Shown: positions 11,519 to 61,184 of the stretch, in pieces
Position numbering within the stretch: the stretch's first letter is position 1
How the letters are laid out: the number at the start of each line of letters is the position of its first letter
NCBI GenBank assembly: GCA_963575745.1
Contig: CAUYUJ010000181.1
Coordinates: 248,001 to 312,000, forward strand
From: Prorocentrum cordatum
Lineage: Eukaryota
DNA length: 64,000 bases
Direction of reading: 5' to 3'
Program-made: the position numbers and the translations under genes
Notes under the pieces: generated by a model
The model's database searches: none
What the model was told of the DNA's origin: nothing
What the model saw: the letters and a program-made list of their open reading frames with translations, nothing else

Positions 11519-13334
11519 ATGAAATTCGCAGCGCGGTGGGTCAGAGCCGGACGGACGCCACGCCGCGCAAGCCGAAGCATCCCGACCGCGGATGGCTGCG
11601 GAGGGCGTCCGCCCTTCCGTCCCCCATCTGTCCTTCAGCGGTTGTGTGTGTGTGGGGGGGCCTCCCCTTGCCCCACGTCGCGGTACTCTCGCTCCCCCCC
11701 ACGCCGCGGCGCCATTCTCGGCACGCCGGCGGCGCCCGCCCGCTCCGTTTTCGCTTCCGCCGTTCGACCACGGCCACCCCGACATTTCGTCGTCCGCCTG
11801 GCCCTCCTCATTCCATGCTCCGCCCTTCGCTCCCTCCTCCTCCTCCTCCTCCTCCTCCTCCTCCTCCTCCTCCTCCTCCTCTTCCCTAGTCGTTCCTTCT
11901 TCCCCACTCTGCTCCCTCCTCCTTCGCCTGCTGCTGCTCCTCCTCCTCCTCCTCCTCCTCCTCTTCAGCTTCCTCTCTGCTCCCTCCATCTCTTTGACTG
12001 TTTCCTCTGGCTCCCACTCCTCCTCCTCCTCCTCCTCCTCCTCCTCCTCCTCCTCATCCTCTTTCCATCCAATTTGCTCCTCCCTCCTCTTCGTGTCCTC
12101 CATTGTTCCGTCTCCGCCAACTCCCCTCTGCTCCCACATTCGATTCCTCAGCATCCTCTCTCCCGTCGTCGTCCTCAATCCCCTCATCCTCATCATCCTC
12201 CTCTTCCTATTCCTCCTCGTCTTCCTCCTCCTCCTCCTCCTGCTCCTTCCAACTATTTCTCCTTCACAGCATCTGATATATTTCCTCCATCTTGACTTGT
12301 TCGTTAGCCTCCTCATGAACCTCGGACGCGGAGAGGCGGGGAGGGAGGGGAGAGGACAGGGGAGAACAGAACACTGGCACGCGGGGGAGGCAGGGGGAGG
12401 GGAGGGATGGAGTGTGCGGAAGAAGGAGGATGAACATGTGGATATGAGGAGGGATAGGGAGGTGAGGAATGTGAGAAAAAAGGGAAGGAGAAGGGTTGGG
12501 GGAGGGAGGGAAGGGAGGGGAAAGGGAAAGGAGGACTGGGAGAGGAGGGGTGAGGGAGGAGGTGAGGGGAAAGGATGAGGACGGAGGGAGGAGGGGACAG
12601 GACGAGGGATGAGGAAAAAGAGGAAAAGAAGGGGGAGGACGAGGAGGAGGAGGGAAGAGGGGAGGGAGGCAGGTAGGGGCAGGAGGGGAGAAAGGGAGGA
12701 CGAGGAGGGGGGGAGTGGAGGGATGGGCTGGGACGGCACCCGGGGACAGTCCGAGGCGGAAGGGCATCACACCCGCCGATCGAACCAAAGAGCTACGACC
12801 AATGGGGGGAGAATTCTACGAGGGCAAGTCGCATTTCATATTGGGAATGGTGAAAAGGGATGCGTACCTGTTCAGTGCTAGTGACCACCTCGCCTCTATA
12901 AAGCACAGGTGTGTCCGGAACCTCTGATCTAAAGTCTGTAAAGATCCGATGCAATCGGTCGGGTATGTAGACTTAACAACTTTATTCCGAGCTCTTGGGG
13001 GAGGAGGAGCGCGCCCGGCCCTGGACGGCGTCCCTGGAAGTCCAGACCCTTTCCCTGGGGCCAGTTTTTCGTCCTGAGTTGTTTTTTGACGGTCCCGAGG
13101 CCCGGCGAGGGCCCCCCGGGACCGAAAACAACCAAAAACCTCCCGTCCTGATTTTTTCACGACGCGATCATGTCTGGGGGGGGAGGAGGAGCGCGCCCAG
13201 CTGCCTGCGCCGCCCGCCTCTCCAGCCCGACCCCTCCCGCCTCCCTGCCGCGCAGCCCCCTGTCCCTCTGCACGAGGGGGGGCGACGGGCGGCCTCTCGG
13301 CCCCCGAGGCCGCCGCGGGGAGCTGCCCTGGCCC

Positions 13335-13957
13335 GTTCTCCTCCTCCTTCTCCTCCTCCTCCTCCTCGTCCTCCTCCTCCTCCTCCTCCTCCTCCTCCTC
13401 CTCCTCCTCTCCTCCTCCTCCTCCTCCTCCTCCTCCTCCTCCTCCTCCTCCCGTCCACCCTCCCCCTCCTCCTCCTCCTCCTCCTCCTCCTCCTCCTCCT
13501 GCTCCTCCTCCTCCTCCTCCTCCTCCTCCTCCTCTCCCTCCCTTCTCCCCCCCCTGCTCCTCCTCCTCCTCCCCCTCCCCCTCCTCCCGCCTTCCTCCTC
13601 CTCCTCCTCCTCCTCCTCCTCCTCCTCCTCCTCCTCCTCCTCCTCCTCCTCCTCCTCCTCCTCCTCCTCCTCCTCCCCCCCTCCTCCTCCCCTCCTCCTC
13701 CTCCTCCTCCTCCTCCTCCTCCTCCTCCTCCTCCTCCTCCTCCTCCTCCTCCTCCTCCTCCTCCCCCTCCTCCTCCTCCTCCTCCTCCTCCTCCTCCTCC
13801 TCCTCCTCCTCCTCCTCCTCCTCCTCCTCCTCCTCCTCCTCCTCTCCTCCTCCTCCTCCTCCTCCTCCTCCTCCTCCTCCTCCTCCTCCTCCTCCTCCTC
13901 CTCCTCCTCCTCCATCCTCCTCCTCTCCTCCTCCTCCTCCTCCTCCCTCCAGCACAG

Positions 13958-14017
<60 letters not shown>

Positions 14018-14182
14018 GATCATCATCATCATTCATCAGCATCATCATCAGCATCATCATCAGTATCAGTATCAGTATCAGTATCAGTATCAGTAGTATC
14101 AGTATCAGTCAGTATCAGTAGTATCAGTACCAGTACCAGTATCAGTATCAGTATCAGTATCAGTATCAGTATCATTATCAGT

Positions 14183-14222
<40 letters not shown>

Positions 14223-14310
14223 GCATCATCCCCCTCCTCCTCCGCCTCCTCCCTTCTCCTTCTCCTCCTCCTCCTCCTCCCTCCTCCTCCCTCCTCCTCC
14301 TCCCGCTTCC
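13335..14310. repeat. Compound microsatellite (CCT)n-(CAT)n-(CAGTAT)n-(CCT)n
   Basis: Visible directly. Confidence 0.95.
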
Positions 14311-19318: not shown

Positions 19319-22300
19319 CTATTTGTTGGTGAGCGCCGACTTGGCCCACTTCTTCTTGCCGCTCCCCGACGGTGCCGTAGAAACGCTCGCAATGCTCACA
19401 ACATCCGTCGGAGGCTTGTTGACGGGGGCGCCAGCGAGTAGGTTCTTGAACTCGCCGAGGTGGCGGTTGAGGTTCTGCGGGAGGTTCTCGAGCTGCACGT
19501 TCAAGTTCACCTTCGCCCACTTCGTCGTCTGGTCGTAGTCGGCCAAGGTAGGCTTCCCACCAGTGGTCGTGACGAGGTGAACGAGTGCGATGGAAGCCGC
19601 CAACACCGCGCTCTTCTCCAAGATATCCTTGCGGTGGCTGATCATTGCCTGGAGCTCCTCGATCTCCTGCCTCTTGACGAGGTTGTGCCAATCAGCGCTC
19701 TTCACAACTGTGCCGATGATCTTCTCATTCGTGGGGAACTGGGCCACGGCGTTCGCGATCTGCTGCCCGAGCTGCTTCACCTTGGGGTCCGCGCCGCCAT
19801 TGAGCAAAGCCACGCCCGTGAAGTCCCACTTCTCGATGGCCACGTTGAGGTCGTTGGAGTAGTTGGCGACCCAATCGCCCTGCAAGCTTGAAATGAATGC
19901 CATCGCAGTCTTCTGCTGTGCAACGAGCGCATCCCACTCCTTGAGGCCCTGCTGGTAGACACGGTCGAACACTGCGTGCTTCTCGCAAGCAGATACAAAC
20001 TGAGTCAAAGCCCAGGACATGGAACTCAGCAAGTCGTTGACGTCAATGAGGCTAACGGAACGGCCCGCCTTCTGGCGCTCGTCTGCGCTTAAAACCCTAT
20101 CGAAGATCACCGCCAACTTCAAAACGTCAGCAGCTCCAGGAGGTAGGATGTCTTTCTTGATGGTCAGCAAGTTAGTGAGCGTTTTCATCCCTTGAGCGGG
20201 TGCCTTGTTCATGTACTCTACGAGCGTATCCCTGAAGCGGTCGCGCATGCTTCGCTCTGCCAGAATGTTCAAAAACAATAAAGCTGAAGGGGACTGTTGG
20301 AACGCGTATGGAAGAGGCCTCGAATGTAGAGCCAAGTTCTTCGCGTTCTCAGACTGTAAAGCCTCCGTCCATTTGTTGATCATCTCAGTGGGATCGGGCA
20401 GGATCTCCTTGTCTCTGGCCTCCGCAAGCTTGATCGTGACAGCGGGGTGGTTCGTGAGATGGAAGAGGACGCATGCTTCCTCAGCCGGCGGGCTGAAGCG
20501 CTCCAGGATCTTGAAGATGTGGTAGAACACGTTGGCCATGTCCCACTGGTCTGGCACTTCATCCTCGGGGGGCTGTTGCCTATCTGGTAGCTCTGGTGAG
20601 TAACCGCTCCCACTGTAGATGCCCTCCACAAGGTCCTTGAACGAGTCGGTGAGGTCGACGACCTCGCTGAACACCTTTAGCGACATCTCGATGAACTTCA
20701 CGCCCAGGCCAAACATATCTCGACCCTCCTGCGAATCAATAGTAGGCCCTCCCTGGCAGAAGACGTCGCCGAACTGCTTTGCCTCAGAAACACCGTCAGA
20801 GCATATCTCCACCAGTACCTCGTACGCCTCCTCGAGCCTGCCACCATCACCCCTCTGGATCATCTCCTCGACCCTCCCCGCGAACCTATTATGAGACATG
20901 TTCTCGCACTGCTTGGCATGCATCTCGCTCAAGTTCGCCATCGTGTCCCAGGCCTGCTTGCCATGCGTAGCATGAGATCCACCGAGAGATTTGAAATTCA
21001 CCTTCATTCTGGGGGAGGGCTTCGACGAATTCTTGAGTAATGCCATGGCCGCAAGTCGGGTAGAGTGCTGGATCGGCACGGACTCGCCTTGGAGGTCGAC
21101 GTTCCTCCTGGCGTCAACGACCTGGCCGACGATCGCCACGGCGCCCAAATCCACGGCTGCTTGGGGCGTCAGGCCACACACGAGCTGATCGCCCCAAGCG
21201 TCCACGTCAGCGATGTCCTCGATCAGCTTCGGGCAACGTTCTGAAATCGCCTTGGCGATGGCACCAATCGACGATTCGTCCGACAGCTTGAACACAACGT
21301 TCCATAAGGCCAAGACAATGGACACCTGAAGCTTCCCAGCCATCTCCCTCGCCCTGCTGGCCTCGCAAGACAAGCCCAACATGGACACGTTCAAGTGATT
21401 CTCCCCCAGCGCCGCCTCGTCGAACTGGGGCACATTCAAGATGCTGTTGATGTAATCCTTGTGGGCCCCGACCTTCTCCACCAACGCATGCAAGTTCATC
21501 GAGAGAGTCGTAGACATCAGGTCGTTGGGCGCAGACTTCAGCATGTCGAATAGTTTCGTCTCGATGGGCGAGGCGACAAACGAGGCAAACTCCTGTGGCT
21601 TACCGCCCACCTTGTCAAGTAGCTCCTGTCTGCACTCCAACTTGTCAGCCTCTGTGAAGATCCTGGCGGAGAGGTCAGTCGCCGAGTCGTTCCCAGCCGA
21701 ACCCCCCAGCTGCTTTACAAGCACGACGCAACTTAGATAAGAAAGATTGGAAATCCTTCTCGCGGTTGCGGTTCTCCCAGTGGTTCTCCCAAGCATATTT
21801 CTCTTCCACTTGTCGTAGCGCGAGCTCGCCTTTGTCGACCGTGGCCATGGCCCCCGTCCGCCTCGGCTTCTTAGATGCATCCGTTGGAGCGTCCACGCCA
21901 CCAGGTACATTGGCAGGCCTCTTCGCAGCCGCAGGCGTGGTAGGTGGCAGCGAGGCTGGCTTGGCAGCAAGGTCTGCCCCTGATCGACATGATGATCTGG
22001 CCGTCGAAACAACATCATCACATTCGTCGTCTTCAACTGTCGCCGTGAGGCGAGAAGCAAACCTGGCGCCCGAAGGCGCGGGGGCTCCAGCCTTGGCAGC
22101 TTCCTCGTCGGCCTTGCCAGTGATGCGCCTGCGGCCGAGGCCCATCTTCGTCGCGACGATGCCGTGTCTCTCATCAGCGCCCTCCTTCGACTCGTGCTTC
22201 TCCGTCTTCGACTTCTGGCTGGCCCTCTCCCTGCCGCGCTTGAATCGGCAAGCCCCGGACTCGGCGCCTGACACGTCGGACACCTCGATACCAAGCGCGC

Positions 22301-22972
22301 CGTCGTCGTCCTCGATCACCTTCTTACCCTTAGACTCGATCTGCTGAATCAGGTCGTCCTCATCCGAGTACTTCAGATTCCAGATCCTATGGGGAGCCCT
22401 CCTCCTCCTCCTCCTCCTCCTCCTCCTCCCCACCCTCCTTCCCTTGCTCCTTACCTCCTGCTCCTCCTCCTCATCGTCCACCTTCTCCTCCTCCTCCTCC
22501 TCCTTTCCCTCCTCCTCGTCCCCCATCGCGTCCTGGCAATGTAGTCTATCGGCTGGAAGACGCCAGAGTCGTAGTCCTGGTCGAACTGCTTGTCATTCTT
22601 CTGTGTCGTGCGCTCCACGTTCATGGTGTAGTTTCTCTCGTTGTGGCCTTCGCCAGAGACCACAGACCTACGACAGGTAGCAAACTTCTCAGCCATATCC
22701 TTGTCCTGCTTACGTAGCTCTCTCGCCTCGGCTAAAGTGACCTTCGTACCGTGGACCCTCCTGCGGGTCTTATGGCAATCGTAGCACTCGTCCCCCGCCA
22801 AAGAGGCCCCCTTTTTTGCATTGTTCCGTTTGTGCCACTCGAGGAATTTTCCATCGCCGTCGCGATCGGCATCGTGCGTCCACTGCTCACAGTCCACGCA
22901 GAACCTATTGTCGAACTCGAGCAGGGGATTCGTGTTCTTCCCCTTCTTGGCCTTGGACTTCTTAGGAGGCAT
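19319..22972 (-). CDS. Large (~1150 aa) unknown protein with N-terminal CxxC...CxxC zinc-binding motif; one 146-bp intron and one frameshift; possibly more 3' exons
   Basis: MPPKKSK...CVDC...CYDC (22533-22972). Removing GA..AG intron 22387-22532 joins it in frame to IWNLKYSDEDD... An extra G in the G6 run near 21705 links it to the ~790 aa complex ORF ending at 19319. Confidence 0.7.
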
Positions 22973-23486
22973 GATGCCGTCAAGAGTCTCTGCAGGCCGG
23001 AGTCAACATCAGCTTCGGTTGGAGGTTGACCCTCGAATCCTTTGGGCCAAAGCGGCAGCGGAGGGGAGGACGGTGGAGCGATGGGTGCAGTTGGCGTGAA
23101 AATGGAAGATGCGTTGTTGTTGCGTGACGTGCTACTCTGCTGATGCTTGGGCGTCGCGCTCTTGCTGCGCGATGCCTGGCACTTATGCTGCTTCCGACGT
23201 GCACGGAAAAAACGATCCGAATGACGACGACGACGAAGACGGCGATCTTCCTCCTCCTCCTCCTCCTCTCCCTTCCTTCCTCCTCCTTCTCCTCCTCTCT
23301 CTCCTTTCTCAGCTTAGCCCCCCCCCCCCCCCCCCCCCCCCCCCCGACAACGCCCGCAACAAAATGGCATGTGTTGCGGGTCCCCCTCCTTCCCTTCGTC
23401 TTCAGCCTTTTCCTCTTCCTCGTTCTCCTCCGTGTCCTCTCCTCCTCCTCCTCTTCTTCATCCTCCTCCTGCTCCTCCTCATCCCC

Positions 23487-23533
<47 letters not shown>

Positions 23534-24002
23534 TCCTCCTCTTCCTCCTCCTCCTCTTTCGTTTATGTGCCGTGTGTTGGTGTTCCGACTGATCAATGTT
23601 GCGTGTTGTTGTCGGTTGTTGTTGTGTTTTGCTGTAGTATCATGCTTGATGGCTCCTCTGATCCAAATCGTGATTGCGGCTTCTGCTGATGCGCTCCTGC
23701 GCGCTGCTGCGCACTGCTGCGCTGGCACGGCCTGGGGGCAAGTATGCGACGAGGAGGGGTGGACCATGAGAGAGATACCCTCTTCGGACCTGCCGACCGT
23801 TCACCTCGACTCTGATCGAGTGGCTGGACTTTCTCGCTCACGCGCGCCGCAGCCCTTGCTCCGACTCAGTCCTGGGGCCCTTAGGTCCAGCCCGCCCCCC
23901 GCAGACCAGGCCGCGCAGGGCGTGCCCAACGCGCGGGCACATCAACTCGCCTGCCCCCCCCCCCCCCCCCCCCCCATGCCGAAATCGAATCCCAGAGAGG
24001 CC

Positions 24003-24192
24003 CCAGGAAAGTTAAGAACACATTCCCAGAATCTAAGAACATAGTTAAAAACACATTCCGTTCTTAAATTTCGGCCCTGAAGTGTGCGAGGGGTGCCAAA
24101 AACAACAGCCCCAGGGAATTTAAGAACACATTCTGTTATTAAAAGTGTTCTTAAATGTGTTCTTAGATTTCGAATGTGTTCTTAGATCCTGG
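24003..24192. mobile_element. AT-rich MITE-like element built of direct and inverted taagaacacat motifs
   Basis: ccagga..taagaacacattc at the left end and gaatgtgttcttagatcctgg at the right end; about 7-8 motif copies in both orientations. Confidence 0.65.
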
Positions 24193-24332: not shown

Positions 24333-27300
24333 CTAACATAAGCCGATCTCTTCGGCAACCCTAACAAGAACAGGCCGCGCCTCAGGCGTCGACTCTATCA
24401 GCTCAGCAAGCACAGCCCGATCGCGTTCTCTATTTTCTTTAAGTGCTTTCACGAGGCACTGGGAGTGAATGTAACGTTCTGCATTGATCTTGGTACCTGG
24501 TAACCAGCGGTACCTGAATCGCCGGACGCCTTTGGGGATCTTCTCGTCGCACCATGGACACACGGAACGATTCGACAATGAGATGTGGCATTCGACTAGC
24601 CCGACGATGTCTTGATGATGCGGTGGAGGTTCTGGCGCCTTCACCTCCTCTGGCCCCTTGGGCCCCACTGGCCCCTAGAAGCGACGGAGACCGGGGTTGG
24701 GGGGGGGGGGGGGGCGACGGGCATGGGAATGAAGAGCGTTAGAGAAGGATAAGGGAGCGTGAGGGTAGACAATAACAAGAGAAATGAAAGCATGGGCAAC
24801 GAAAACGGATATAATACTGATGGCCCTCGTCTTTGTCCACTTGGTCCTGGTCTAAATCTTCAATTCCTGGAGATTCCTCCGAAGCCGCCTCGCCCTCTGA
24901 CTCCTCCTCGCCCCTCTATTTTAAGACCGCCTCCTCATCATCGGATACATCGCTGCCGATGTTGTCGTCGTATCGTGCTTTCTCTGGGGCTGGACGTTCT
25001 TTCGTCGGCTTCAGGGGGGCCCCAAAAAACGGAACTTTGAATGAAAGGTTGGGCATGCTTTTCTTGATTGGCTTCACAACGCTGATAAGGGGCACCGCTT
25101 GTTCGAAATTCGGCGTGACGTTCACAACGTATTCGCTCACGTCGCTCCTTCCAGAATGATTGTAGAATTGAACGTCCACGGACCCGATCTCACGAAGCGA
25201 AACCCCTCTCACGGCAGCAGCAGCAATCAAATATTTACGAATGGCCCCAAACGCAAGGATTGGACGCATCGGCTTAACGATGCCGACCATGTCAGACCCA
25301 TCGTACTCGTCTGTAAAGCATGCTGGAACGAGAGTGATCGACTCCCCCCTGTTGAAGACCTTTGCCAAAAAAAGAATCTCTCTGACATGCCTTCGATTGA
25401 AAGGCGGATGACGATGGGATACTTAATCAATTCTTTCTTGCCAGCCTGCCTCACTAGAAGCCTGCTCCTGTTTGCAGACATCAGATTGTACACGTTCTTA
25501 CAGAAGTTGATGCCTGGCTGCAGGAGGGGGTCTGCCCGACAAACCCCACCAAAACGAACGCAGCAGCACGTGAAGCAGGTCCTGGTCTCAGCTGGGTTGG
25601 GGGTTGGCGCCTCGTCCGTGGCGACGGCGGCGTTGGCCCGCCTCTCCATCTCGCCCTGGTTCCCCTCCAGTACCATGGCTTCCCTCAAGCCCGTGTCGAA
25701 GCAGTGGAGCTTCGAGCCACCTCCACTCCCTCTCTTGGGCGGGGGCTCATGTGGGCCCCTCCTGCCCCTTCCCCCTCCTCCCCTTCCCTCGCGTTCTCCT
25801 CATTCATCCTTCCCTCGCATCTTCCTCATCTTCCGCTCCTCTTCTCTTCTCCCTCGCCTCCTTCCGACTCCCTCCCTCTCCTCCCGCTCCTCCGCTCCGT
25901 CGTCGTCATCCACCCTCTCATCTCCTCCTCCTCCAGCTCATCTTCAACTCCCCCGTCCTCCTTCTCCTCATCCTTCTCTTCGGCCTCCTTGTTCTCCTCC
26001 TCATCCTCCTCCTTCCCTCCTCCTTGCCCTTAGCAGGAGGCCAGCTCAAAGCATGGACAGTAGTAAGAAGCAGCAGCACCGATGACGGAGGCGCAGGCGA
26101 GGATGAGGAATCAAAGGGCAGAGGGCGAGAAAGCTGAAGAAGAAACGGATGCAACAAAGAGCATCTCCAACAATCCAAAAACGAGTGAGCTGAACTTCTG
26201 GCAAGCGCGCACTCTCATTGCTATAGCAATATACCCACTCATGACGGCATGACCCCCCCACAAAACCAAAATATTGCCGGCCAGGGCGCGTCTTTCAATA
26301 GGCGATTGGTTTGAACCATGCTAGTTTTTCCGCCTTGCAAGCATGCCCCACGTCAAAGCCACGCATCATTCGCAACATTGCTGCGCAAACACATCATGGC
26401 TGCAACGTCGCACTCCCTCCAAATGCCCCCTCCCACCGTCCCAAGAATAATGATTCAATCTCTGAGAACTTCTGCCTCGCCCTTCGCATGCGATCAGTAT
26501 GCCTCCTCTGCCTCCCTGCAGCAAGTGGCGCGCCTCCCTGGGCAGCAGCGTCAATGCCGAGAGCCCTCTCCTCGTAACCTCGACGATCCTCGAGAGATAG
26601 CGCTCTCCAATCTGCCAGCACCCTCTGACGGCGCTCGCGGAAAGGCAATGCTGATGAATGTGTCCCGAACTTGTCTTTCACGAACAAGTCATAGGCTCGG
26701 GTCTTCCTGGGGCGTGACCTCGCAGCTGAGCCAGGATCTATGCTGGCCATCTGGTTGGCCTTGCGCTTCGAAGCCTTCCTGAAAGCGAACATCGGCAATG
26801 ACCTGAAGAACTCTGCCCGTGCAGCAGCGCCTCCAATCGCATCGGACAGCACTCGTTTCTGCAAGGCAAAATGGGATATCCTGACAGATCTGCAAAATGC
26901 ATGTTTAGACAACTGCCGTTTTGAAAATGCCCTGCCCCGCTTCCCTTTTGCTGGTCTGAACTGCTGGCCAATCACATGCTTCCGTTCGGCTTTCGTCGCG
27001 CCCACTGGCAATGCGCTGAGGATGTCTTTCGAATCAGAATGAGCTTGCTTCGCAACTGGCAGGGGGCCCTCCAACTTCGCCAACCATATCTTGGTAAAGT
27101 ATGGGTCCAAGCACTCTTCGCAATCTGTTGCAGCGTCCATCTCTCTCAAGCTCTGCGTTGTCCGTCTAACGATGTCCGCATTGAACTCCCACGACGTACA
27201 CGCATTGAATATCAATAGGTGGGGTCACACGTCGGCACCACAAGTCTGTAATACGCATCAGCAGCAGCACAGATCATCGCATCGCACACCTGTTGGCACA

Positions 27301-29060
27301 TATTGGCCTCCCCCAGCGTGTTCTCGCCAATCCAACCAGCGCTATCAAGATCGTGCAACATGTTACCCATTGAGTCAATTACCTTCCATGCCCTCGTGCC
27401 GTCAAGTATCTCCAGGTTCAACTGCGCGGTCCTCTTTCGGATCACCTCCAACTCAAGAATGCGATCGATGGGCACGCCAGCTGCACCTTGTGGAAGTGGT
27501 TTGGCCATGTCGATGTGCTTGTTCAGTGTCTTCTCAGCCGTGAAGCAGTGGTTCAACAATATCTGAAGTGGCCTCGACAGTATCTCTGCAATCTCAAACT
27601 GGTATCGGCAATCAGGCAAGTCGAAAAATTTGATTACCTTGTCAACCTTGACGCCTGCCTTGCCGCCGCCGTCACGATCGGCATCATCACCATCTTCGTC
27701 GCGCTCACCCTGACTTCTAAAGGCTCGTTTGAAAGATCGAGGTCCCAGCCCATGTTGAACCAATCCTCGAAGAGCCCAGGCAGACGCCTCATCGAAACCT
27801 TTCCATCTGTATTTCAATGGCTCCGTGATCCTGGTGTCGAGGCCGATTTTGATGCGCTCCGTAACAATCTGCAACGATACGTTCGCATCGCCATTGCAAC
27901 CCAAGGGGCATCCGTCCAGAACGCAATAGTGGTAAATGTGTTCATCGGCCCAGTGCCCATTGTCAGCTTCCACAATTGCTTGGGTGGCCGACTCGTCGAC
28001 GTCGCGAGCGGGCATGGTAGTTCGAAGCTGCGAGCGGGCAGCATCCTGCCACTCTTGCATCTGCGGGGTGAGCTCAAAGACTTGCCTGTGTCTGAACGTC
28101 TTCTTGATTTCAGCTTCTAGGGCTTGCAAATATCGATCCATACATCGTCCACCCATCAACTTGTGAGCCAGCGTGCACAAAACTGCAGGGACGTCGTACT
28201 TCAACGATTCGAAGATGGGCTTCTGACAGAGAGCTGCCGAATGGCACATGCATGTTATGTGCAATTGGCTGTTCTTCTCCTGGCCAGGCGGAATATTGTT
28301 GTTATAATCATTAAGTGCAGCCTCCTCCATCCCAATGCTATTTTTTATTCACAATGTGCCCATCCTTGATAAGAACACTGACCTTCCGCACTCTGTCAAA
28401 CTTTCTCTTGATGTCGCCGTCGGGATCCAACCTTGAACCAACATGCGTTGCTGAAGCCGCCGTCCATCGTCGCCAATTACTCCTGACCGCCATCGAATTC
28501 GCTTTGGGTTAATGGCTGCAGCGGCGAGAAAACCTCGGCGGCGAAGAGGGAACTCTCAGGAGCAGGCTGGCCTGAATTATTCGAACAAGACGCTGCACTT
28601 TGACGGGCAAATATGCATTCGCACGAATTCAAAACTGCTTCATGCTTGTTCTTACCCCTCTGCTGTAGTTTTTTTTTTTTTTTTTTTTCTGCACGCGTCT
28701 GTTCACATGCCGTTGTGACTGCGCACTGTCTCTCATCCACATCGAGGCGTCGTCGAACATAGAAGTACATATCGCCAGAGCAGTGTCAATACAGTGATCG
28801 AGCAATGAGGCCAATCCTCTGCTCTGCTGACACACTGCTGAAGCAAGGCCTCTGTCAAGATTGCGTCGGGCAGCCTTGTCGTCCTTCTCCTGCTTACCCA
28901 TTGGACGTGGGCCTCCATCGATCCAGTGCTCTCGACCAAGACGCCCGCCAGGACCAAACATCGAAGACGAAACTTCTTGCGGCCTCGAAACCAGTGTCCT
29001 CTGAATCATCGAAGCCGGTGTTTTCAATTTATGTTGCAGCACGCCTCGTGAAATTCGCAT
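24333..29060 (-). mobile_element. hAT-like DDE transposase gene fused to an HMG box and a PARP-type zinc finger (~1300 aa; 2 introns, 5 frameshifts, 1 stop; start uncertain)
   Basis: Ordered motifs: MFDDASMW (~28750), IKDGHIVN (~28360), CMCH (~28245), PLKYRW (~27810), PVGATKAERKH (~26990). HMG-like RKTRAYDLFV...WRALSLEDRRGYEERA (26560-26710). SNRSVCPWCDEKIPKG..R...YIHSQC (24455-24585). Confidence 0.75.
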
Positions 29061-31418
29061 GCGGGTCTCGGCGCTAAGAACTGCGCCTCGACGATGCCCG
29101 CGGCGACCATGGCGTCCTCCCGAGGCTCTCAGTGATTCACGCCCAAAGAGCCCAAGACAATTTCAGGAATGCTCGAGATTGCCCTTGTATGTTTCACACC
29201 ATGTGTTGTTGCCCCCCCTTCCAATAAATGCCCCCACAGAGTCCCCCCCCAAAAGGCCCACGAGGGAACGCGTGGCCCGCGGGGTGCAGTCGAGGGCAGG
29301 GGGTGAGCCTTCCAGGGTTCTCTCTAAGCCCTTGCAAGGCCCTCTTAGGCAATGCTTGTAGAGAAGCCCCAAAAATATTGGAGGCCGCGTTGGGGCCTTA
29401 GCAAAATCTCAAAGAATCTTTTGAGCCAGCGCTCAAGCCCTGAAGGGTCCAAAGGGGCTCTTCCAGGAATTGCTAACAACGCACCCTGTAAAACAATCAA
29501 AGGTTTGAACTGGAGTTAGCCGCTTTACTTCCGCAGGCCTTTGCCGCCCTGCCCGAATGGAGAGGCGGAAAAAGGCAAGGGGGAGGGAGTAAGAGAGAAG
29601 TCCTCCTGGTCCAGGTGGGGCTGCTGGTGGTGGGGCTGCTGGTGGGGCTGCTGGTGGCGGCGCTGCAGGCGGGTCTGCCTGCGGCGATGGGTCGAAGAAC
29701 CCTCTGTACATGGGCCACAAACGTGGTTTCAGCCAAAATGGCTATGGGCAACGCTTTCGTGCTCTCACCTGCTCGCGCTTGTTCTTCTCACGCCGTGCCC
29801 TCCATTCGTCTCTGCTCCCTCTGCCCGTTCCGTGACCTCCTCCTCCTCCTCCTCCCTTCCCTTTCGCGGCTCACCCCCCCTTACCTGCCTCGCTCTCTCA
29901 CCATCCTTTCCGTCAGGGGGGGCAGCATCTGGGAGAAACCACATCCAAGGCCTTCTAGAATCAACGGTGCTGCCTTGCGGCATCGAAAATTAACAGAGCT
30001 GCATGCAGATATTGTTTTGCAAAACCATATGCCCATCTGAAGTACTTAATTTGGGATCACCAACGTGCCCCCGAAAATTCCACTGCCCAAGCCCCAGTAA
30101 ACCGTTATATGGCACCTGGGGGGTACAATCCTGGGAGGAGTGCGCGGGATGCGCCGGACAGGCGGCGGAGGCGGTGGCGCCGAGGTCGCTGGGGATGAAG
30201 ATGGCGGCGCCGGCCCGGAGCTCGAAGCAGTCACTGACGACGGTGGTTGGAGGGGCCATTCCTTCAAATCCTTCTTGGCCTCCACGGACCTGGCATCCTT
30301 AGGCTTGTGCTTCCGCCGGCGCGGACGCCGCACCTTCGGCCGCTCGCCCTCCAGGATCCCCTTGTCCTCCTCGGTCGTCGACTTGACCTCCGCCTGCGCA
30401 GCCGGCAAACTCCCTGGCGGCACCGGAAGCGCCAGGACGTAGAGTACCTGCTGCGGCGGCGGTGGCGGCGGCTGGATGGGCCGCACGATCACTTTCACAT
30501 GGTCCTTGGACTCCGCCGCGGGCGGTAGGGGAGCCCGCGGAACCGCTGGCGAGGGCTCCAGAGCCTGGCTGTGCAAATGCGGGTTCCTCGAGCGCTCCTT
30601 CGCCGCGCGACTCCACCTCCGCAGATTCGTCACTGGACGGCCTTGACTCGCTGGGGGCGCCTCCGACACCGGGCGTCTCTGCAGGCGAGCAATCTCCGCG
30701 TCCACCACGCAGAAAGGGCTCACCACCTCGCTCCAGTTGCCAGGCGGGGGCTCCATGGCAGATCACGAAATTCGCCTGCCCTACATCAAACGCTGAACAG
30801 AAACGCGAGAGACGAGTGCCCAGCTCCTCACCGATCAAGTCGTCGGGAACGAAGAAGCGCGCGTGAATGGGCCCCGCGTTCAAGTCTGAAGCCGTACCTG
30901 GGGAGCGCACCGCACCGGAAACGATGCGGCCAGGCGGAAAGGTAGCAGTGAAAACGAAAGCCGAGGAGGCGGCCGCGGGGGGCCTGCTCGAGCCCCATCT
31001 CCCAGAGCTTGACCTGGGAGGCAGTGCTGCGCGACCACGGCCCCCAGAGGCCGCAGTCTTGAGCCAAAATGGCTACGGACGGGATGGGGAGCAGGGGGAG
31101 GAGGGGGAGGAGGAGGAGGAGGAGGAGGAGGAGGAGGAGGAGGAGGAGGAGGAGGAGGAGGAGGAGGAGGAGGAGACAGGCTCGTAGAAGGGGAGAAGGA
31201 GGAGGAGGAGGAGGAGGAGGAGGAGGAAGAGGAGGATGGGGAGGAAGAGGAACAATAAGAAAGCGCGGAGGAGTCGGACGGCCAGACGACCACGATACGA
31301 AGACGAGGGGAGGAGGTCGCGGAGGAGAAGGAGGGAGAAGGAGACGGAAGGATGAGGTGGAGGGTCGGGAGGAGAACGAGGAAGAGGGAGGAGGGAGAAG
31401 ATGGGATCGCCGCGGAAC

Positions 31419-44578: not shown

Positions 44579-45840
44579 CGGTTCGCTTTCCGCCGCGGGC
44601 GGGACACGGGCAGGAAACTTCTGCCTCGGGCACCTTGGACCTAAATGGGCGCGGGGGGGGGGGAAGAAAGGGGGGGTGCATGAGACTGCGAGACTAACTC
44701 GAGGTCAAGCCTCGCTCGGCACGACGGGCGCAAAACCAGCAGCTAATCCCCCGCGTCAGAAAACCGGAGATCATGCCACTCTGCCTCGAGACGGACGCGC
44801 CTCTGCGCGCTGAGATTCGCCATGTCGAACGCGGCGGCAAGGTGCGACCGCGCCCCCCCCCCCGCCGCCGAACACTCTCCGCCCCCGACCTCGGCGCCGT
44901 CGAACGACGGCAGCACGTCCGACCAATTGTCGATCAGCGAAGGCGCGCGGACCTGGCCGAGGCGGGCGCTGCGCCTGCCAGGACACTGCAACTTCTTGCG
45001 GCGCGCTCTCCGGTTCCTGAGACCCGGGCCCTGGCTGCAGAGACACTGGGCGTCGAGACACACGCCCAAGGAGTGACCATTGTTTCTCCGGGGCGCCCCC
45101 CGAACTCGGTGAGATCGGGCGCGCGGGGCCGACGGAGGCGGCGGCGGCACGGCTGGCGGCGGCGGCGGACTCAGCGGGGGGGGGCGAAGGGGGCGAGCGG
45201 CGACCTGCCCCTCTCCTGAAGGGCCCGACCTCTTCCCAGGCGCGCGCCCGCAGAATGTGCTCGCCGAGGGGGTCTGCGCGGCCGCCAGTCTCAAACGGCG
45301 CGCCCGAGGTGTCGGACAGATTTTCAGGGCGAACAGATTCGGCTGCCCCGAAGGCAGCCCGTGCGCGCGCGCGCCAGCCGCGGGCCGCCAAAGCCAGGGT
45401 CTCGATCCCCCTGTTGGGGGGGAACGGCTGCACGGTTTCCCCCGGGGCCGTAGGCGACCCGAGGAGTATGAGGAGGAGGAGGAGGCGGAGGAGGTAGAGG
45501 AGGGGGAGGAGGAGGAGGAGGAGGAGGAGGAGGGGGAGGGGGAGGAGCAGGAGGAGGAGGAGGAGGAGGAGGAGGAGGAGCAGGAGGAGGAGGAGGAGGA
45601 GGAGGAGGGGGAGGGGGAGGAGCAGGAGGAGGAGGAGGAGGGAGGACGGGTCGCCTAAGCCCTCCGGAGAAACCCTCCAGGAACGGCCTGCTTCGCGCCC
45701 TTCCTCGCCCCCCGCGCCAGCCGGGCGACCGCCCCTCAGACGCCGGGCAGAGTCGCCCGGCGCCGACTGCAAGGCAGCAGGGGCTCCGATCTCGTGGGCG
45801 AGGGCGCGCCCCCCGATGCGCCATCGCCAATGTCCTTGGG

Positions 45841-59159: not shown

Positions 59160-61184
59160 TTAGCTCGGGCCTGTCCCCCTACAGGGATATTTTGCACGAA
59201 GAATAAAGAAGATACGCAGACAATTGCAAAACATACTGAAAATCATCCAAACATCGTCCCCTGATTTTTTCCCAACCCTCCTGCGTTGGGTTCTCGATTA
59301 TTTGAATAGAGCACTGCTCGCGCGTCGCCTTCCTTACTTCCTTCCTTCCTTCCCGCCCCCTCCCGCCCCTCTCTTCCCCCTTGCCTTTCGCCTCGCTCGT
59401 CGCTGCGTGCCAGCTGGGGGGCTGCGATCTGTAAAACTGTCGCCACTTTCGAGGCCTGCTGGGGGGCCCAGCACACTGGGTAGTCACGGCAGACTCGAAT
59501 GGGACCTCGCCATCCCTGGGGGGCTGCGATCTGTGAAACTGTCGCCACTTTCGAGGCCTGCTGGGGGGCCCAGCACAGTGGGCACTCACGGCAGACTCAA
59601 ATGGGACCTCGCCATCCCTGGGGGGCTGTGATCTGTGAAACTCTCGCCACTTTCGAGGCCCGCTGGGGGGCCCAGCACAGTGGGTACTCACGGCAAACTC
59701 ACATGGGACCTCGCCATCCCTGGGAGTCTGCGATCTGTAAAACTGTCGCCACTTTCGAGGCCTGCTGGGGGGCCCAGCACGGTGGGTACTCACGGCAGAC
59801 TCAAATGGGATCTCGCCAGCCCTGGGGGGCTGTGATCTGTGAAACTGTCGCCACTTTCGAGGCCTGCTGGGGGGCCCAGCACAGTGGGTACTCACGGCAG
59901 ACTCAAATGGGACCTCGCCATCCCTGGGGGGCTGCGACTGTGAAACTGTCGCCACTTTCGAGGCCTGCTAGGGGGGCCCAGCGCAGTGGGCACTCACGGC
60001 AGACTCAAATGGGACCTCGCCATCCCTGGGGGGCTGCGATCTGTGAAACTGTCGCCACTTTCTAGGCCTGTTGGGGGGCCCAGCACAGTGGGTACTCACC
60101 GCAGACTCAAACTGGACCTCGCCATCCCTGGGGGGCTGCGATCTGTGAAACTGTCGTCACTTTCTAGGCCTGCTGGGGGGCCCAGCACAGTGGGTACTCA
60201 CGGCAGACTCAAATAGGACCGCGCCATCCCTGGGGGGCTGCGATCTGTGAAACTGTCGCCACTTTCGAGGCCTGCTGGGGGGGCCAGCACAGTGGGTACT
60301 CACGGCAGACTCAAATGAGACCTCGCCATCCCTGGGGGGCTGCGATCTGTGAAACTGTCGCCACTTTCGAGGCCTGCTAAGGGGGCCCAGCACAGTGGGT
60401 ACTCACCGCACACTCAAATTGGACTTCGCCATCCCTGGGGGGCTGCGATCTGTGAAACTGTCTCCACTTTCGAGGCCTGCTGGGGGGCCCAACACACTGA
60501 CGCCACACGCAGATTCACCCAGCACAGTGGGTACTCACGGCAGACTCAAATGGGACCTCGCCATCCCTGGGGGGCTGCGATCTGTGAAACTGACGCCACT
60601 TTCGAGGGCTGCTGAGGGGCACAGCACAGTGGGTACTCACCGCGGACTCAAATTTGACATCGCCATCCCTGGGGGGCTGCGATCTGTGAAGCTGTCGCCA
60701 CTTTCGAGGCCTGCTGGGGGGCCCAGCACAGTGGGTACTCACCGCAGACTCAAATGGGACCTCGCCATCCCTGGGGGGCTGCGATCTGTGAAACTGTCGC
60801 CACTTTCGAGGCCTGCTGAAGGGGCCCAGCACAGTGGGTACCCACACGCAGATTCAAATTAGACCTCTCCTTGGGGGGCTGCGATCTGTGAAACTGTCGC
60901 CACTTTCGAGGCCTGCTGGGGGGCCCAGCACAGTGACGCCACACGCACATTCTAATTAGACCTCGCCATCCCTGGGGGGCTGCGATCTGTGAAACTGTCG
61001 CCACTTTCGAGGCCTGCTTGCGGGGCCCAGCACAGTGACGCCTCCCAAGTAGCTTACACATCAAGTCGATTGTCCATAAAAGTTTCGGCCAACTCTGATA
61101 CAAATGGGTTGGGTACGTCACAGGGTAATTTTTTAAAAAAATATGTGTGAATATTTCCCCTGTAGAGGGACAGGCCCGACTCAG
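59160..61184. mobile_element. Family B TIR element (2.0 kb) carrying a satellite array
   Basis: tcgggcctgtccccctacaggg at the left end and cccctgtagagggacaggcccgac at the right end; TSD tgttttcg (59152-59) / tgttctcg (61185-92). Confidence 0.8.
59414..61040. repeat. 102-bp tandem satellite, about 16 copies
   Basis: Unit ggggggctgcgatctgtgaaactgtcgccactttcgaggcctgctggggggcccagcacagtgggtactcacggcagactcaaatgggacctcgccatccct. Confidence 0.97.

What the first reader, a model, noticed from the sequence alone, without database searches (positions are those of the whole stretch)
24333..29060. hAT-like transposase fused to an HMG box and a PARP-type zinc finger
Seen: six fragmentary ORFs join into one ~1300 aa protein with ordered D (FDDAS), D (KDGHIVN), CxxH (CMCH), RW and E (TKAERKH) motifs, then an HMG-box pattern, a Cys-rich segment (CFTCCCVRFGGVC), an acidic linker and a terminal CxxC...HxxC zf-PARP pattern. 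Known: DDE + CxxH + RW is the hAT (Hermes-type) signature; HMG boxes bend DNA; zf-PARP domains bind nicks and breaks. Canonical hAT enzymes instead carry an N-terminal BED finger. Inference: a transposase with its own DNA-bending and break-sensing modules, possibly suited to histone-poor dinoflagellate chromatin. I know no described family with this architecture.
Basis: partly seen in the sequence, partly recalled or inferred. Interest (0 to 1): 0.85.

Follow-up and report, generated by a model that had tools for sequence, protein, structure and literature searches.

The report
Dead copy of Hermes-like HMG/PARP-finger transposase
This stretch of a dinoflagellate genome is a broken copy of a gene from a large, apparently undescribed protein family that joins a Hermes-like (hAT-type) transposase core to a DNA-bending HMG box and a PARP-type DNA-break zinc finger.

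Summary
On the minus strand, 29711 to 24336, broken reading frames line up in order with a family of about 1300-1400 aa proteins (337 clusters at E<=1e-3).

- **Core fold:** a confident model of the closest homologue (pLDDT 88.6) matches Hermes hAT transposase best (Z 10.1-14.3). D, D, CxxH, RW and E are nearly invariant.
- **Accessory domains:** the HMG box and the PARP-type CCHC finger are supported by profile and by fold.
- **One gene:** the module order core, HMG, unassigned Cys domain, finger recurs in whole proteins and in 5 further DNA loci. One of these is an intact 1360-aa ORF.
- **The window copy is dead:** it has five in-frame stops and at least three frame shifts, and its drift from a related copy looks neutral.
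- **Origin of this copy:** a decayed dinoflagellate spliced leader lies 15 nt before its start codon, so it is probably a retroposed mRNA copy.
- **Not shown:** no terminal inverted repeats or target duplications were found, so mobility is unproven. No Pfam hAT or BED domain matched.

Verdict: a new variant of a known kind. The family is interesting; this copy is a relic.

The parts
29727..29747 (-). Decayed relict dinoflagellate spliced leader (3 mismatches in 21), 15 nt upstream of the gene's ATG
   Evidence: 2 matches in the window, 0 expected in 100 shuffles; sequence context; the start codon follows.
29436..29711 (-). N-terminal piece. ATG at 29709-29711, MYRGFF followed by an Ala/Pro-rich stretch, which is the family-typical start
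   Evidence: Twenty of 153 family proteins begin M-[FYLI]-x-x-[LFI]-[LWFIV] followed by an Ala/Pro- or acid-rich stretch.
29163..29435 (-). Stretch with no counterpart in the family. It holds three in-frame stops (29433-35, 29409-11, 29163-65)
28632..29162 (-). Piece A: RG-rich region, helix and beta-1 with the first catalytic Asp (FDDASMW, D at 28752-28754). Ends at in-frame TGA 28629-31
28512..28628 (-). Stretch between two in-frame stops, still homologous to the family (its GxNxxxPVxN block). TAA at 28509-11
   Evidence: HSP 28898-28347 reads through both stops..
28341..28508 (-). Piece B with the second catalytic Asp (KDGHIVN, D at 28362-28364). The frame is lost in an A6 run at 28341-28346
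   Evidence: the related copy in run X1 has one base fewer at 28341.
27215..28348 (-). Piece C: CxxH (28241-28252), helical insertion domain with an H/C/C/C cluster, and YRWKG (RW at 27803-27808)
26397..27224 (-). Piece D: end of the insertion domain, CxxC, the catalytic Glu helix (AERKH, E at 26985-26987), then the HMG box. Joined to C only by a frame shift at 27212-27224
26562..26708 (-). HMG box
   Evidence: HMG_box_2, E 2.4e-4, 22.2 bits against a cut-off of 22.4; family profile against TFAM, 1.1e-6. Z 8-9.3, rmsd 1.3-2.0 over about 60 residues in the homologue model.
25800..26396 (-). Interruption of about 600 nt, rich in GGA-type simple repeats and full of stops, absent from homologues. 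Either an insertion/expansion or an intron
   Evidence: length varies in run X1.
24919..25799 (-). Pieces E and F: conserved but unassigned alpha/beta domain with the Cys motif CFTCCCVRFGGVC (25539-25577), split by a frame shift at a T7 run (25367-25373). Ends in an acidic tail
   Evidence: X1 has one base more at 25366.
24336..24674 (-). Piece G: C-terminal PARP-type CCHC zinc finger (about 24417-24581; ligands at 24558-60, 24549-51, 24465-67, 24456-58) plus two helices. Stop at 24333-35
   Evidence: zf-PARP 1.2e-5. PARP1 3.6e-5; profile 1.4e-7; model pLDDT 83.9, and every listed row down to rank 28 is a PARP1 or DNA ligase III finger.

Best explanation
The locus (minus strand, 29747 to about 24333) is a dead, probably retroposed copy of a gene from a large dinoflagellate protein family.

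**Family architecture (shown).** The modules come in a fixed order:

- a short MFxxLW start with an Ala/Pro-rich and RG-rich N-terminus;
- a Hermes-like (hAT-type) RNase H-fold DDE core, interrupted by a big helical insertion domain and carrying CxxH and RW;
- an HMG box;
- a conserved Cys-bearing alpha/beta domain of unknown fold;
- an acidic linker;
- a C-terminal PARP-type CCHC zinc finger.

**Other points shown.** The fold, the conserved catalytic residues, the fixed module order within one ORF, and the broken state and relict spliced leader of the window copy.

**Mechanism of intact members (inferred).**

- They act as cut-and-paste nucleases of the hAT kind. The D, D and E residues hold the metal ions.
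- CxxH and RW help form the DNA hairpin on the flanking DNA.
- The built-in HMG box bends the bound DNA, the role that separate HMGB1 plays for RAG.
- The PARP-type finger grips a nick, a DNA end or a hairpin made during the reaction.

**History of this copy.** Copies also spread through reverse transcription of spliced-leader-capped mRNA, and that is how this copy arose. It then decayed.

**My odds.** Architecture as described, 0.9. Window copy non-functional, 0.8. Window copy is a retrocopy, 0.65. Family encodes transposases of mobile DNA elements rather than host nucleases, 0.55.
For: **Family and collinearity.**
- The search with piece C found 337 hits at E<=1e-3.
- The window pieces align in order with the full-length proteins.

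**Core fold.**
- The AF2 model has pLDDT 88.6 and pTM 0.87.
- The Asp residues lie on or just after beta strands (E42-59 and E183-190) and the Glu at the start of helix 643-653.
- Hermes fills Foldseek ranks 1-11 with probability 0.97 or higher.
- VIA-align gives Hermes Z 13.0 over 384 residues in the wide search and Z 10.1-14.3 in the second look.
- Next come retroviral integrase cores at about Z 8, P element transposase at 7.3 and RAG1 at 5.6 or lower.

**Conserved residues, P0001 numbering.**
- D52 in 61 of 61, D191 in 71 of 73, C226 in 76 of 76.
- H229 in 75 of 76, R373 in 85 of 85, W374 in 76 of 85, E646 in 52 of 54.

**HMG box.**
- Family profile against TFAM 1.1e-6 and NHP6A 2.6e-5.
- Z 8-9.3 at model residues 747-806.

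**Zinc finger.**
- Profile against PARP1 1.4e-7.
- C39, C42, R52 and C73 are invariant and H70 nearly so, in 11 sequences.
- The window piece models at pLDDT 83.9. Every listed row down to rank 28 of its Foldseek search is a PARP1 Zn1/Zn2 or ligase III finger.
- HMMER aligns invariant R52 with PARP1 residue 34.

**One gene.**
- All 38 proteins with an HMG hit are among the 57 that reach the Glu region. Most of the other 19 end within 75 residues of that region. Eight proteins hold all six modules.
- Five further DNA loci show the same order, and L003 is an open 1360-aa frame with every motif.

**Dead copy.**
- Five in-frame stops and three frame shifts.
- Of the 40 listed differences (of 85) to the roughly 97-99% alike copy in run X1, 34 lie in coding pieces. 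They give 25 nonsynonymous to 9 synonymous changes, and X1 has two further stops.

**Retrocopy.**
- A relict DinoSL lies 15 nt before the ATG.
- Locus L005 has a relict leader 62 nt before its MFDF start.
- The abstract of PMC6050394, seen in the listing, says DinoSL remnants identify dinoflagellate retrogenes.
Against: **Membership and fold.**
- No Pfam hAT family (Dimer_Tnp_hAT and the like) or zf-BED matched in any scanned protein.
- Neither the family profile nor piece C finds Hermes by sequence in the PDB.
- Foldseek E-values for Hermes (1.2e-3 and weaker) fall just short of that tool's 1e-3 line.
- The VIA notes warn that mostly helical models can reach Z of about 13-14 without kinship.
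- HMG and zf-PARP hits lie below Pfam's gathering scores: 22.2 against 22.4, and 26.4 against 39.3.

**Mobility.**
- No terminal inverted repeats or 8-bp duplications were found around the window copy.
- No inverted repeats more than 1.5 kb apart were found in any of the 8 loci.

**Pseudogene call.**
- Two of the three frame shifts sit in homopolymers and are absent from run X1, so they could be assembly errors.
- The reads of run X2 that confirm the TGA at 28629-31 may come from the window's own source.
- Only 40 of 85 differences were visible.

**Retrocopy.**
- No poly(A) remnant follows the stop.
- The 600-nt interruption could be an intron, which a retrocopy should lack.
- L001/L002 and L006 show intron-like gaps, as resident host genes would.
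Confidence: 0.65

Rival explanations
1. The family is not a mobile-element transposase. It is a host (domesticated) DDE nuclease family of dinoflagellates, for example for repair or recombination, that multiplied by gene duplication and mRNA retroposition. The window holds one dead retrocopy of it.
For: No TIR or TSD was found at the window copy or in 8 other loci. Relict spliced leaders lie before the start codon in the window and in L005, so at least some copies arose through mRNA. L001/L002 and L006 have intron-like gaps at different places. HMG boxes and PARP-type fingers are typical of chromatin and repair proteins. The copy lies in a run of same-strand ORFs.
Against: 337 clusters below 50% mutual identity is a lot for a host gene. 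Many copies are fragments or broken. Near-invariant catalytic residues across such a diverse family fit autonomous transposases well. The contigs were mostly too short to contain element ends, since the ORFs nearly fill them. The absence of TIRs is therefore weak evidence.
Confidence: 0.3
2. The window copy is a live gene. The frame breaks are introns or assembly errors, and the protein is made.
For: Two frame shifts lie in homopolymer runs (A6 at 28341-46 and T7 at 25367-73). The related copy in run X1 has the lengths that keep the frame. By my reading, the 25800-26396 gap can be removed in frame with GT..AG ends.
Against: There are five in-frame stops between the ATG and piece C, two of them inside conserved blocks. 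The C/D shift at 27212-27224 is not in a homopolymer and loses no residues, so it is not an intron. The ratio of 25 nonsynonymous to 9 synonymous differences to X1, and the extra stops in X1, point to neutral drift. Identical 151-nt records of run X2 cover the TGA at 28629-31.
Confidence: 0.08
3. The likeness to hAT is only a shared general fold. The core belongs to another superfamily, or to a new one, of RNase H-like DDE enzymes with an insertion domain (P, Kolobok, MULE, Transib-like).
For: Identity to Hermes is only 9-11%, with no sequence-level hit. No Pfam hAT domain matched. P element transposase also aligns over 273 residues at Z 7.3. No solved structures of Kolobok- or MULE-type eukaryotic enzymes came up for comparison.
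Against: Hermes stands 5-7 Z units above every other transposase. It aligns over about 380 of its 476-550 modelled residues, up to its C-terminus at residue 609. The D, D, CxxH, RW, E order and the S-x-x-x-E-R-x-H helix motif match the hAT pattern as I recall it.
Confidence: 0.15
4. The HMG box and the zinc finger belong to neighbouring genes and were joined to the transposase only by the reader's stitching or by gene-model errors.
For: In the window the parts are in different frames, separated by stops and by a 600-nt gap.
Against: L003 has one uninterrupted 1360-aa frame holding every module. Eight proteins carry all six modules, and the order never varies. P0002 and P0004 nearly fill contigs of 4358 and 4941 nt.
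Confidence: 0.02

Closest known systems
Hermes and the hAT superfamily of DNA transposases (Ac, hobo, Tam3; PDB 2BW3, 4D1Q, 6DWW, 8EDG)
   Same: Both have an RNase H-like DDE core split by a large helical insertion domain. Both show the order D, D, CxxH, RW, E. Hermes is the best structural match: Z 10.1-14.3, 362-384 residues aligned, model 1-686 against Hermes 135-609.
   Different: Identity is about 10%. No Pfam hAT dimerisation domain or BED finger was detected. The protein is twice as long, at 1300-1400 aa. It has an extra HMG box, a Cys-bearing alpha/beta domain and a PARP-type finger at the C-terminus. No TIRs or 8-bp duplications were found.
RAG1/RAG2 with HMGB1 (V(D)J recombinase) and its Transib relatives
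   Same: Both are hairpin-forming DDE enzymes that need an HMG-box protein to bend the DNA. The family's HMG profile also hits the HMGB1 chains of RAG complexes such as 5zdz_N.
   Different: In RAG the HMG box is a separate host protein; here it is part of the enzyme. RAG1 is a much weaker structural match, at Z 4.2-5.6.
PARP-type zinc fingers of PARP1 (Zn1, Zn2) and DNA ligase III alpha (Pfam PF00645)
   Same: Both have CCHC ligands and the same fold. Both have an invariant Arg ten residues after the second Cys, aligned with PARP1 residue 34. I recall that residue as a DNA-backbone contact.
   Different: Here it is a single finger at the C-terminus of a transposase-like protein. There is no PARP or ligase catalytic domain. 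Pfam scores lie below the gathering cut-off.
Domesticated hAT transposases (Kat1 of Kluyveromyces, DAYSLEEPER, ZBED genes)
   Same: They are hAT-derived proteins encoded without recognisable transposon ends. Kat1 keeps hairpin-forming activity (abstract of PMC4763223, in the listing).
   Different: Those are single or few-copy host genes with BED-type fingers. This is a very large and diverse family with other accessory domains.
Dinoflagellate retrogenes marked by relict DinoSL
   Same: A leader remnant lies just upstream of the start codon, on the coding strand. The abstracts of PMC6050394 and PMC12014239, seen in the listing, describe this signature.
   Different: The leader here is decayed (3 of 21 mismatches). 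The copy is broken and no poly(A) remnant was seen.

Membership tests
hAT superfamily transposase | DDE triad on an RNase H-like fold | tested here: met
   The model has D52 on strand 42-59, D191 after strand 183-190 and E646 on helix 643-653. Conservation is 61/61, 71/73 and 52/54. Integrase cores score about Z 8 and Hermes Z 13-14. The window keeps all three residues.
hAT superfamily transposase | Large all-helical insertion domain between beta-5 and the Glu helix, arranged as in Hermes | tested here: met
   Helices span residues 245-640. The alignment to Hermes covers chain 135-609 with 362-384 residues.
hAT superfamily transposase | CxxH and RW motifs (motif definition recalled) | tested here: met
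   C226 in 76/76, H229 in 75/76, R373 in 85/85, W374 in 76/85. The window has CMCH and YRWKG.
hAT superfamily transposase | C-terminal hAT dimerisation domain (Pfam PF05699) | tested here: inconclusive
   No Pfam hit in the scanned proteins. However, the structural alignment runs to Hermes residue 609, close to its C-terminus.
hAT superfamily transposase | N-terminal BED zinc finger (common, not universal) | tested here: not met
   No zf-BED hit. The N-termini are Ala/Pro-, acid- and RG-rich and show no Cys/His pattern.
hAT superfamily transposase | Short terminal inverted repeats and 8-bp target site duplication | tested here: inconclusive
   None were found around the window copy or in 8 loci. 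The window copy looks retroposed and the other contigs are short, so ends may simply be out of view.
HMG box (PF00505 / PF09011) | Three-helix L-shaped fold and sequence profile | tested here: met
   Z 8-9.3 with rmsd 1.3-2.0 over 59-60 residues. Family profile against TFAM 1.1e-6.
HMG box (PF00505 / PF09011) | Pfam gathering score | tested here: not met
   Window piece D scores 22.2 bits against a cut-off of 22.4. P0108 scores 22.7 against 25.4.
zf-PARP (PF00645) | CCHC zinc ligands and the PARP-finger fold | tested here: met
   C39, C42 and C73 are invariant and H70 nearly invariant. Every listed row down to rank 28 of the Foldseek search is a PARP1 or ligase III finger, probability 0.89-1.00. 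Profile against PARP1 gives 1.4e-7.
zf-PARP (PF00645) | Pfam gathering score | tested here: not met
   Best score is 26.4 bits against a cut-off of 39.3. Seven of 11 members match at E<=5.
zf-PARP (PF00645) | Binding to nicks, breaks or hairpin ends | not testable with these tools
   This needs a DNA-binding assay.
Dinoflagellate retrogene | Relict DinoSL just upstream of the start codon on the coding strand | tested here: met
   The leader is at 29727-29747 (-) and the ATG at 29709-29711. None is expected by chance (0 in 100 shuffles).
Dinoflagellate retrogene | No introns, and a poly(A) remnant at the 3' end | tested here: inconclusive
   No poly(A) follows the stop. The 600-nt interruption at 25800-26396 may be an insertion or an intron.

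The most novel reading that the evidence does not exclude
The family may be an undescribed, deep branch of hAT-like cut-and-paste elements that is widespread in dinoflagellates. In this branch the transposase has taken on board the helper functions that other DDE recombinases borrow from the host: an HMGB-like DNA bender, and a PARP-like sensor of nicks, ends or hairpins. This could be an adaptation to chromatin with few nucleosomes. Some members, such as the open frame in L003, would still be active.
Probability: 0.35. Interest if true: 0.8.

Novelty: new variant of a known kind. Interest (0 to 1): 0.62.

Why it matters
DDE recombinases such as RAG and Sleeping Beauty depend on host HMG-box proteins to bend DNA, and the host's break sensors deal with their products. 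A transposase family that carries both kinds of module in one chain would be a natural experiment on which helper functions transposition really needs. It could also explain how DNA elements work in dinoflagellate nuclei, whose chromatin is unlike that of other eukaryotes.

The family is large (337 clusters). Pfam names only its small accessory domains, and those only weakly. It is therefore probably a sizeable block of unannotated "hypothetical" genes in dinoflagellate genomes and plankton metagenomes.

The link to spliced-leader retroposition shows that copy number in these genomes cannot by itself be read as DNA transposition. An intact member might also be worth testing as a self-sufficient genome-engineering transposase.

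Tried and rejected
**Searches that gave nothing or could not be run.**

- Whole-genome search: no genome is held for this window.
- Earlier scan notes by place, sequence and words: nothing.
- NCBIfam on the pieces: only noise.
- PDB by sequence with piece C: 0 hits.
With P0004 it returned only unnamed clusters at 0.83 and 0.79. For the C-terminal domain of P0001 (860-1075) it gave no usable hit. That domain therefore stays unassigned.
- The listing of cluster members: the database is switched off. Names and taxa of the homologues could not be had that way.
- Word-indexed search with piece C for longer proteins: none. With profile A1: 13 proteins, no names.
- The search for related loci with A1 in viral contigs: no usable conserved stretch. 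With P0001 in metagenomes: none confirmed. With the narrower alignment A3: 8 loci.

**Repeats, ends and RNA.**

- The whole-window repeat scan was swamped by simple repeats.
- TIR and TSD searches were negative.
- No RNA holder was listed among the sequencing runs. Parts of the stretch without cover in runs X2-X4 say nothing.
- No poly(A) tail follows the stop.

**Ideas considered and rejected.**

- A short intron removing the TGA at 28629-31. The only GT..AG pair is 21 nt long and leaves the stop in place (my reading).
- That the exact leader at 31058-31078 is an SL RNA gene. It is not followed by GT.

**Other checks.**

- Pfam on other large ORFs of the window: nothing useful.
- Literature: searches, and term look-ups in PMC11453091 and PMC12014239, found no paper describing a transposase with an HMG box or a PARP-type finger. 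The library lacks most subscription journals and Repbase reports, so this is not proof that the family is unpublished.

Full report
**What is there**

On the minus strand between about 29750 and 24330 lies a string of stop-to-stop frames.
- Pfam gives only two weak matches on the pieces:
  - HMG_box_2 on piece D: E 2.4e-4, 22.2 bits against a cut-off of 22.4.
  - zf-PARP on piece G: E 1.2e-5, 26.4 bits against a cut-off of 39.3.
  - No family matches the supposed transposase pieces.
- The last piece also finds PARP1 fingers in the PDB by plain sequence search (best 3.6e-5).

**The family**

Piece C (378 aa) was searched against 1.84 billion representative proteins.
- It found 337 relatives at E<=1e-3, 187 at 1e-10 and 17 at 1e-30.
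- The best is P0001 (1142 aa, 35% identity).
- Seventeen of the 150 listed proteins have 1000 residues or more.
- The window pieces align in order with these long proteins, from the FDDASMW block to the C-terminal finger.
- tblastn finds only this one copy in the window.

**The core fold**

An alignment of 84 homologues plus three window pieces (A1) gave an AlphaFold2 model of P0001 with mean pLDDT 88.6 and pTM 0.87.
- Foldseek against the PDB puts Hermes transposase chains at ranks 1-11 (E 1.2e-3 to 4.9e-2, probability 0.97-1.00). Everything below has probability 0.15 or lower.
- An independent all-against-representatives search gives Hermes 8edg_A as the top hit: Z 13.0, rmsd 5.5 A, 384 residues, model 1-686 against chain 135-609. 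Below it come HMG boxes, retroviral integrase cores (about Z 8), P element transposase (Z 7.3) and ISCth4 (Z 6.5).
- The second look gives six Hermes entries at Z 10.1-14.3, RAG1 at 4.2-5.6 and Mos1 at 4.2.
- The near-invariant residues sit where a DDE enzyme needs them:
  - D52 (61/61) on the first long strand;
  - D191 (71/73) just after strand 183-190;
  - C226 and H229 (76/76 and 75/76) after strand 220-225;
  - R373 and W374 (85/85 and 76/85);
  - E646 (52/54) at the start of helix 643-653.
- From memory, Hermes has D180, D248, C265/H268, W319 and E572. The offsets from the ends of the aligned ranges agree with this, but I could not see the residue-level structural alignment.

Points against membership:
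- No Pfam hAT or BED domain matched in any protein scanned.
- The family profile does not find Hermes by sequence.
- The tool notes warn that helical models can reach a similar Z without kinship.

I take the core to be a very divergent hAT-like transposase fold (about 0.85).

**The accessory domains**

*HMG box.*
- The A1 profile hits only HMG-box proteins in the PDB, all at profile positions 752-865. Examples are TFAM 1.1e-6, NHP6A 2.6e-5 and HMGB1 1e-4.
- In the model, residues 747-806 superpose on many HMG boxes at Z 8-9.3 with rmsd 1.3-2.0 A.

*Zinc finger.*
- An HMM of the C-terminal finger finds it in 10 of the 150 listed proteins, plus one weak match.
- Aligned with window piece G (A2), C39, C42, R52 and C73 are invariant and H70 nearly so.
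- The A2 profile hits PARP1 at 1.4e-7.
- Pfam zf-PARP matches 7 of the 11 members at E<=5.
- Window piece G modelled with A2 has pLDDT 83.9. Every listed row down to rank 28 of its Foldseek search is a PARP1 Zn1/Zn2 or DNA ligase III finger.
- HMMER aligns the invariant Arg with PARP1 residue 34. I recall that residue as a DNA-backbone contact.

*Unassigned domain.* Between the HMG box and the finger lies a well-modelled alpha/beta domain (P0001 about 870-1071) with a C-x(3-6)-GG-x-C motif. I could not assign it.

**One gene, fixed order**

Domain HMMs were run over 153 family proteins.

| Module | Proteins with it |
|---|---|
| Insertion domain | 153 |
| N-terminal core | 112 |
| Glu region | 57 |
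| HMG box | 38 |
| C-terminal domain | 27 |
| Finger | 11 |

- All 38 proteins with an HMG hit also have the Glu region.
- Most of the 19 that have the Glu region but no HMG hit end within 75 residues of it.
- Eight proteins have all six modules, and the order never changes.

A scan of metagenome contigs with a narrower alignment gave 8 loci.
- L001, L002, L003, L004 and L008 show all six modules in order on one strand. L005-L007 are cut by contig ends.
- L003 holds one uninterrupted 1360-aa frame with every motif.
- L001/L002 and L006 have intron-like gaps.

**State and origin of the window copy**

*Start and stops.*
- The frame from ATG 29709-29711 carries stops at 29433-35, 29409-11, 29163-65, 28629-31 and 28509-11.
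- The last two lie inside sequence that is still homologous to the family.

*Frame shifts and interruption*.
- The frame shifts at an A6 run (28341-46), at 27212-27224 with no residues lost, and at or beside a T7 run (25367-73).
- About 600 nt of repeat-rich sequence interrupts the gene at 25800-26396.

*Comparison with sequencing runs*.
- One DNA run (X1) holds contigs about 97-99% alike over the whole stretch.
- X1 has one base fewer at 28341 and one more at 25366, which would keep the frame at both homopolymers. Those two shifts may therefore be assembly errors or recent changes.
- X1 also has its own one-base loss at 28510.
- Four identical 151-nt records of run X2 include one that covers the TGA at 28629-31. 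X2 may be the window's own source.

*Drift*.
- Of the 40 listed differences (of 85), 34 fall in coding pieces.
- They split 25 nonsynonymous to 9 synonymous, and two of them create further stops in X1. This looks like neutral drift.

*Relict spliced leaders.*
- The 21-base dinoflagellate spliced leader occurs exactly at 31058-31078 (-) and with 3 mismatches at 29727-29747 (-). None is expected by chance.
- Neither is followed by GT, so neither is an SL RNA gene.
- The decayed one lies 15 nt before the ATG of MYRGFF plus an Ala/Pro-rich stretch. This matches the family start (for example MFRGLW in P0007) that 20 of 153 proteins show.
- L005 likewise has a leader remnant 62 nt before its MFDF start.
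- Such remnants are the accepted mark of retroposed mRNAs in dinoflagellates (abstracts of PMC6050394 and PMC12014239, seen in the listing).

I conclude that this copy is a processed retrocopy that has since decayed (about 0.65). Against this, no poly(A) remnant follows the stop, and the 600-nt gap would have to be a later insertion.

**Is it a mobile element?**

- No inverted repeats or 8-bp duplications were found around the window copy or in the 8 loci.
- Most of those contigs are barely longer than the ORF.
- The size and depth of the family, and the near-invariant active site, fit autonomous transposases.
- The missing ends, the introns in some members and the spread by retroposition fit a host (domesticated) nuclease family.
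- I put the transposon reading at about 0.55 and the host-gene reading at about 0.3.

**Organism and neighbourhood**

- The exact DinoSL match points to a dinoflagellate.
- So does the neighbouring 998-aa ORF (19319-22315, -), which is 88% identical to a protein named by its source as from Prorocentrum cordatum.
- The neighbouring ORFs run on the same strand.

**Novelty**

Seven literature searches and two term look-ups found no description of a transposase with an HMG box or a PARP-type finger, in dinoflagellates or elsewhere. The library is incomplete and Repbase could not be searched.

I class the finding as a new variant of a known kind: a hAT-like DDE enzyme with a new accessory-domain architecture. 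The copy in this window is itself only a relic.

Noticed in passing
window 31058-31078 (-), with ORF 30046-30762 (-): An exact 21-base dinoflagellate spliced leader, preceded by T and not followed by GT, lies about 300 nt upstream of a 238-aa ORF that has no Pfam match. It is probably a younger retrogene sitting directly upstream of the transposase-like retrocopy, so two leader-tagged units stand in tandem on one strand.
   Followed up: partly
window 63151-63166 (-): A third spliced-leader-like 16-mer with 2 mismatches. About 0.05 such matches are expected by chance in the whole window.
   Followed up: no
window 19319-22315 (-) and 22451-23002 (-): A 998-aa open frame with no Pfam family is 88% identical to an unnamed Prorocentrum cordatum protein (784 aa, covering 79% of the query). 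Just upstream, a 183-aa Cys-rich ORF starts with MPPKKSKAKKGK. It may be the first exon of the same gene.
   Followed up: partly
window 24000-24190: Short repeats of a TAAGAACAC-like unit lie just downstream of the pseudogene's stop, partly as an inverted pair (24013-24057 against 24142-24184, 82%). A long G run follows at about 23960-23985. Their meaning is unknown.
   Followed up: no
window 59359-61037: A tandem array of a 102-nt unit, 12-16 copies at 66-100% identity.
   Followed up: no
whole window, e.g. 2078-2546, 11750-14260, 31028-31330, 45454-45650: Very many GGA/TCC-type trinucleotide tracts occur on both strands. They create long spurious ORFs and also interrupt the pseudogene at 25800-26100.
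   Followed up: no
L003 1255-5337 (+): An uninterrupted 1360-aa member of the family with all catalytic and finger motifs, on a 5.5-kb public contig. It is a candidate for an intact, testable enzyme.
   Followed up: partly
P0001 model residues 332-343 and 600-603 (window piece C, and piece D around 27100): Two further nearly invariant Cys/His clusters lie inside the insertion domain: H332, C334, C339, C343 and C600, C603. They may bind zinc. I do not know of these in Hermes.
   Followed up: no
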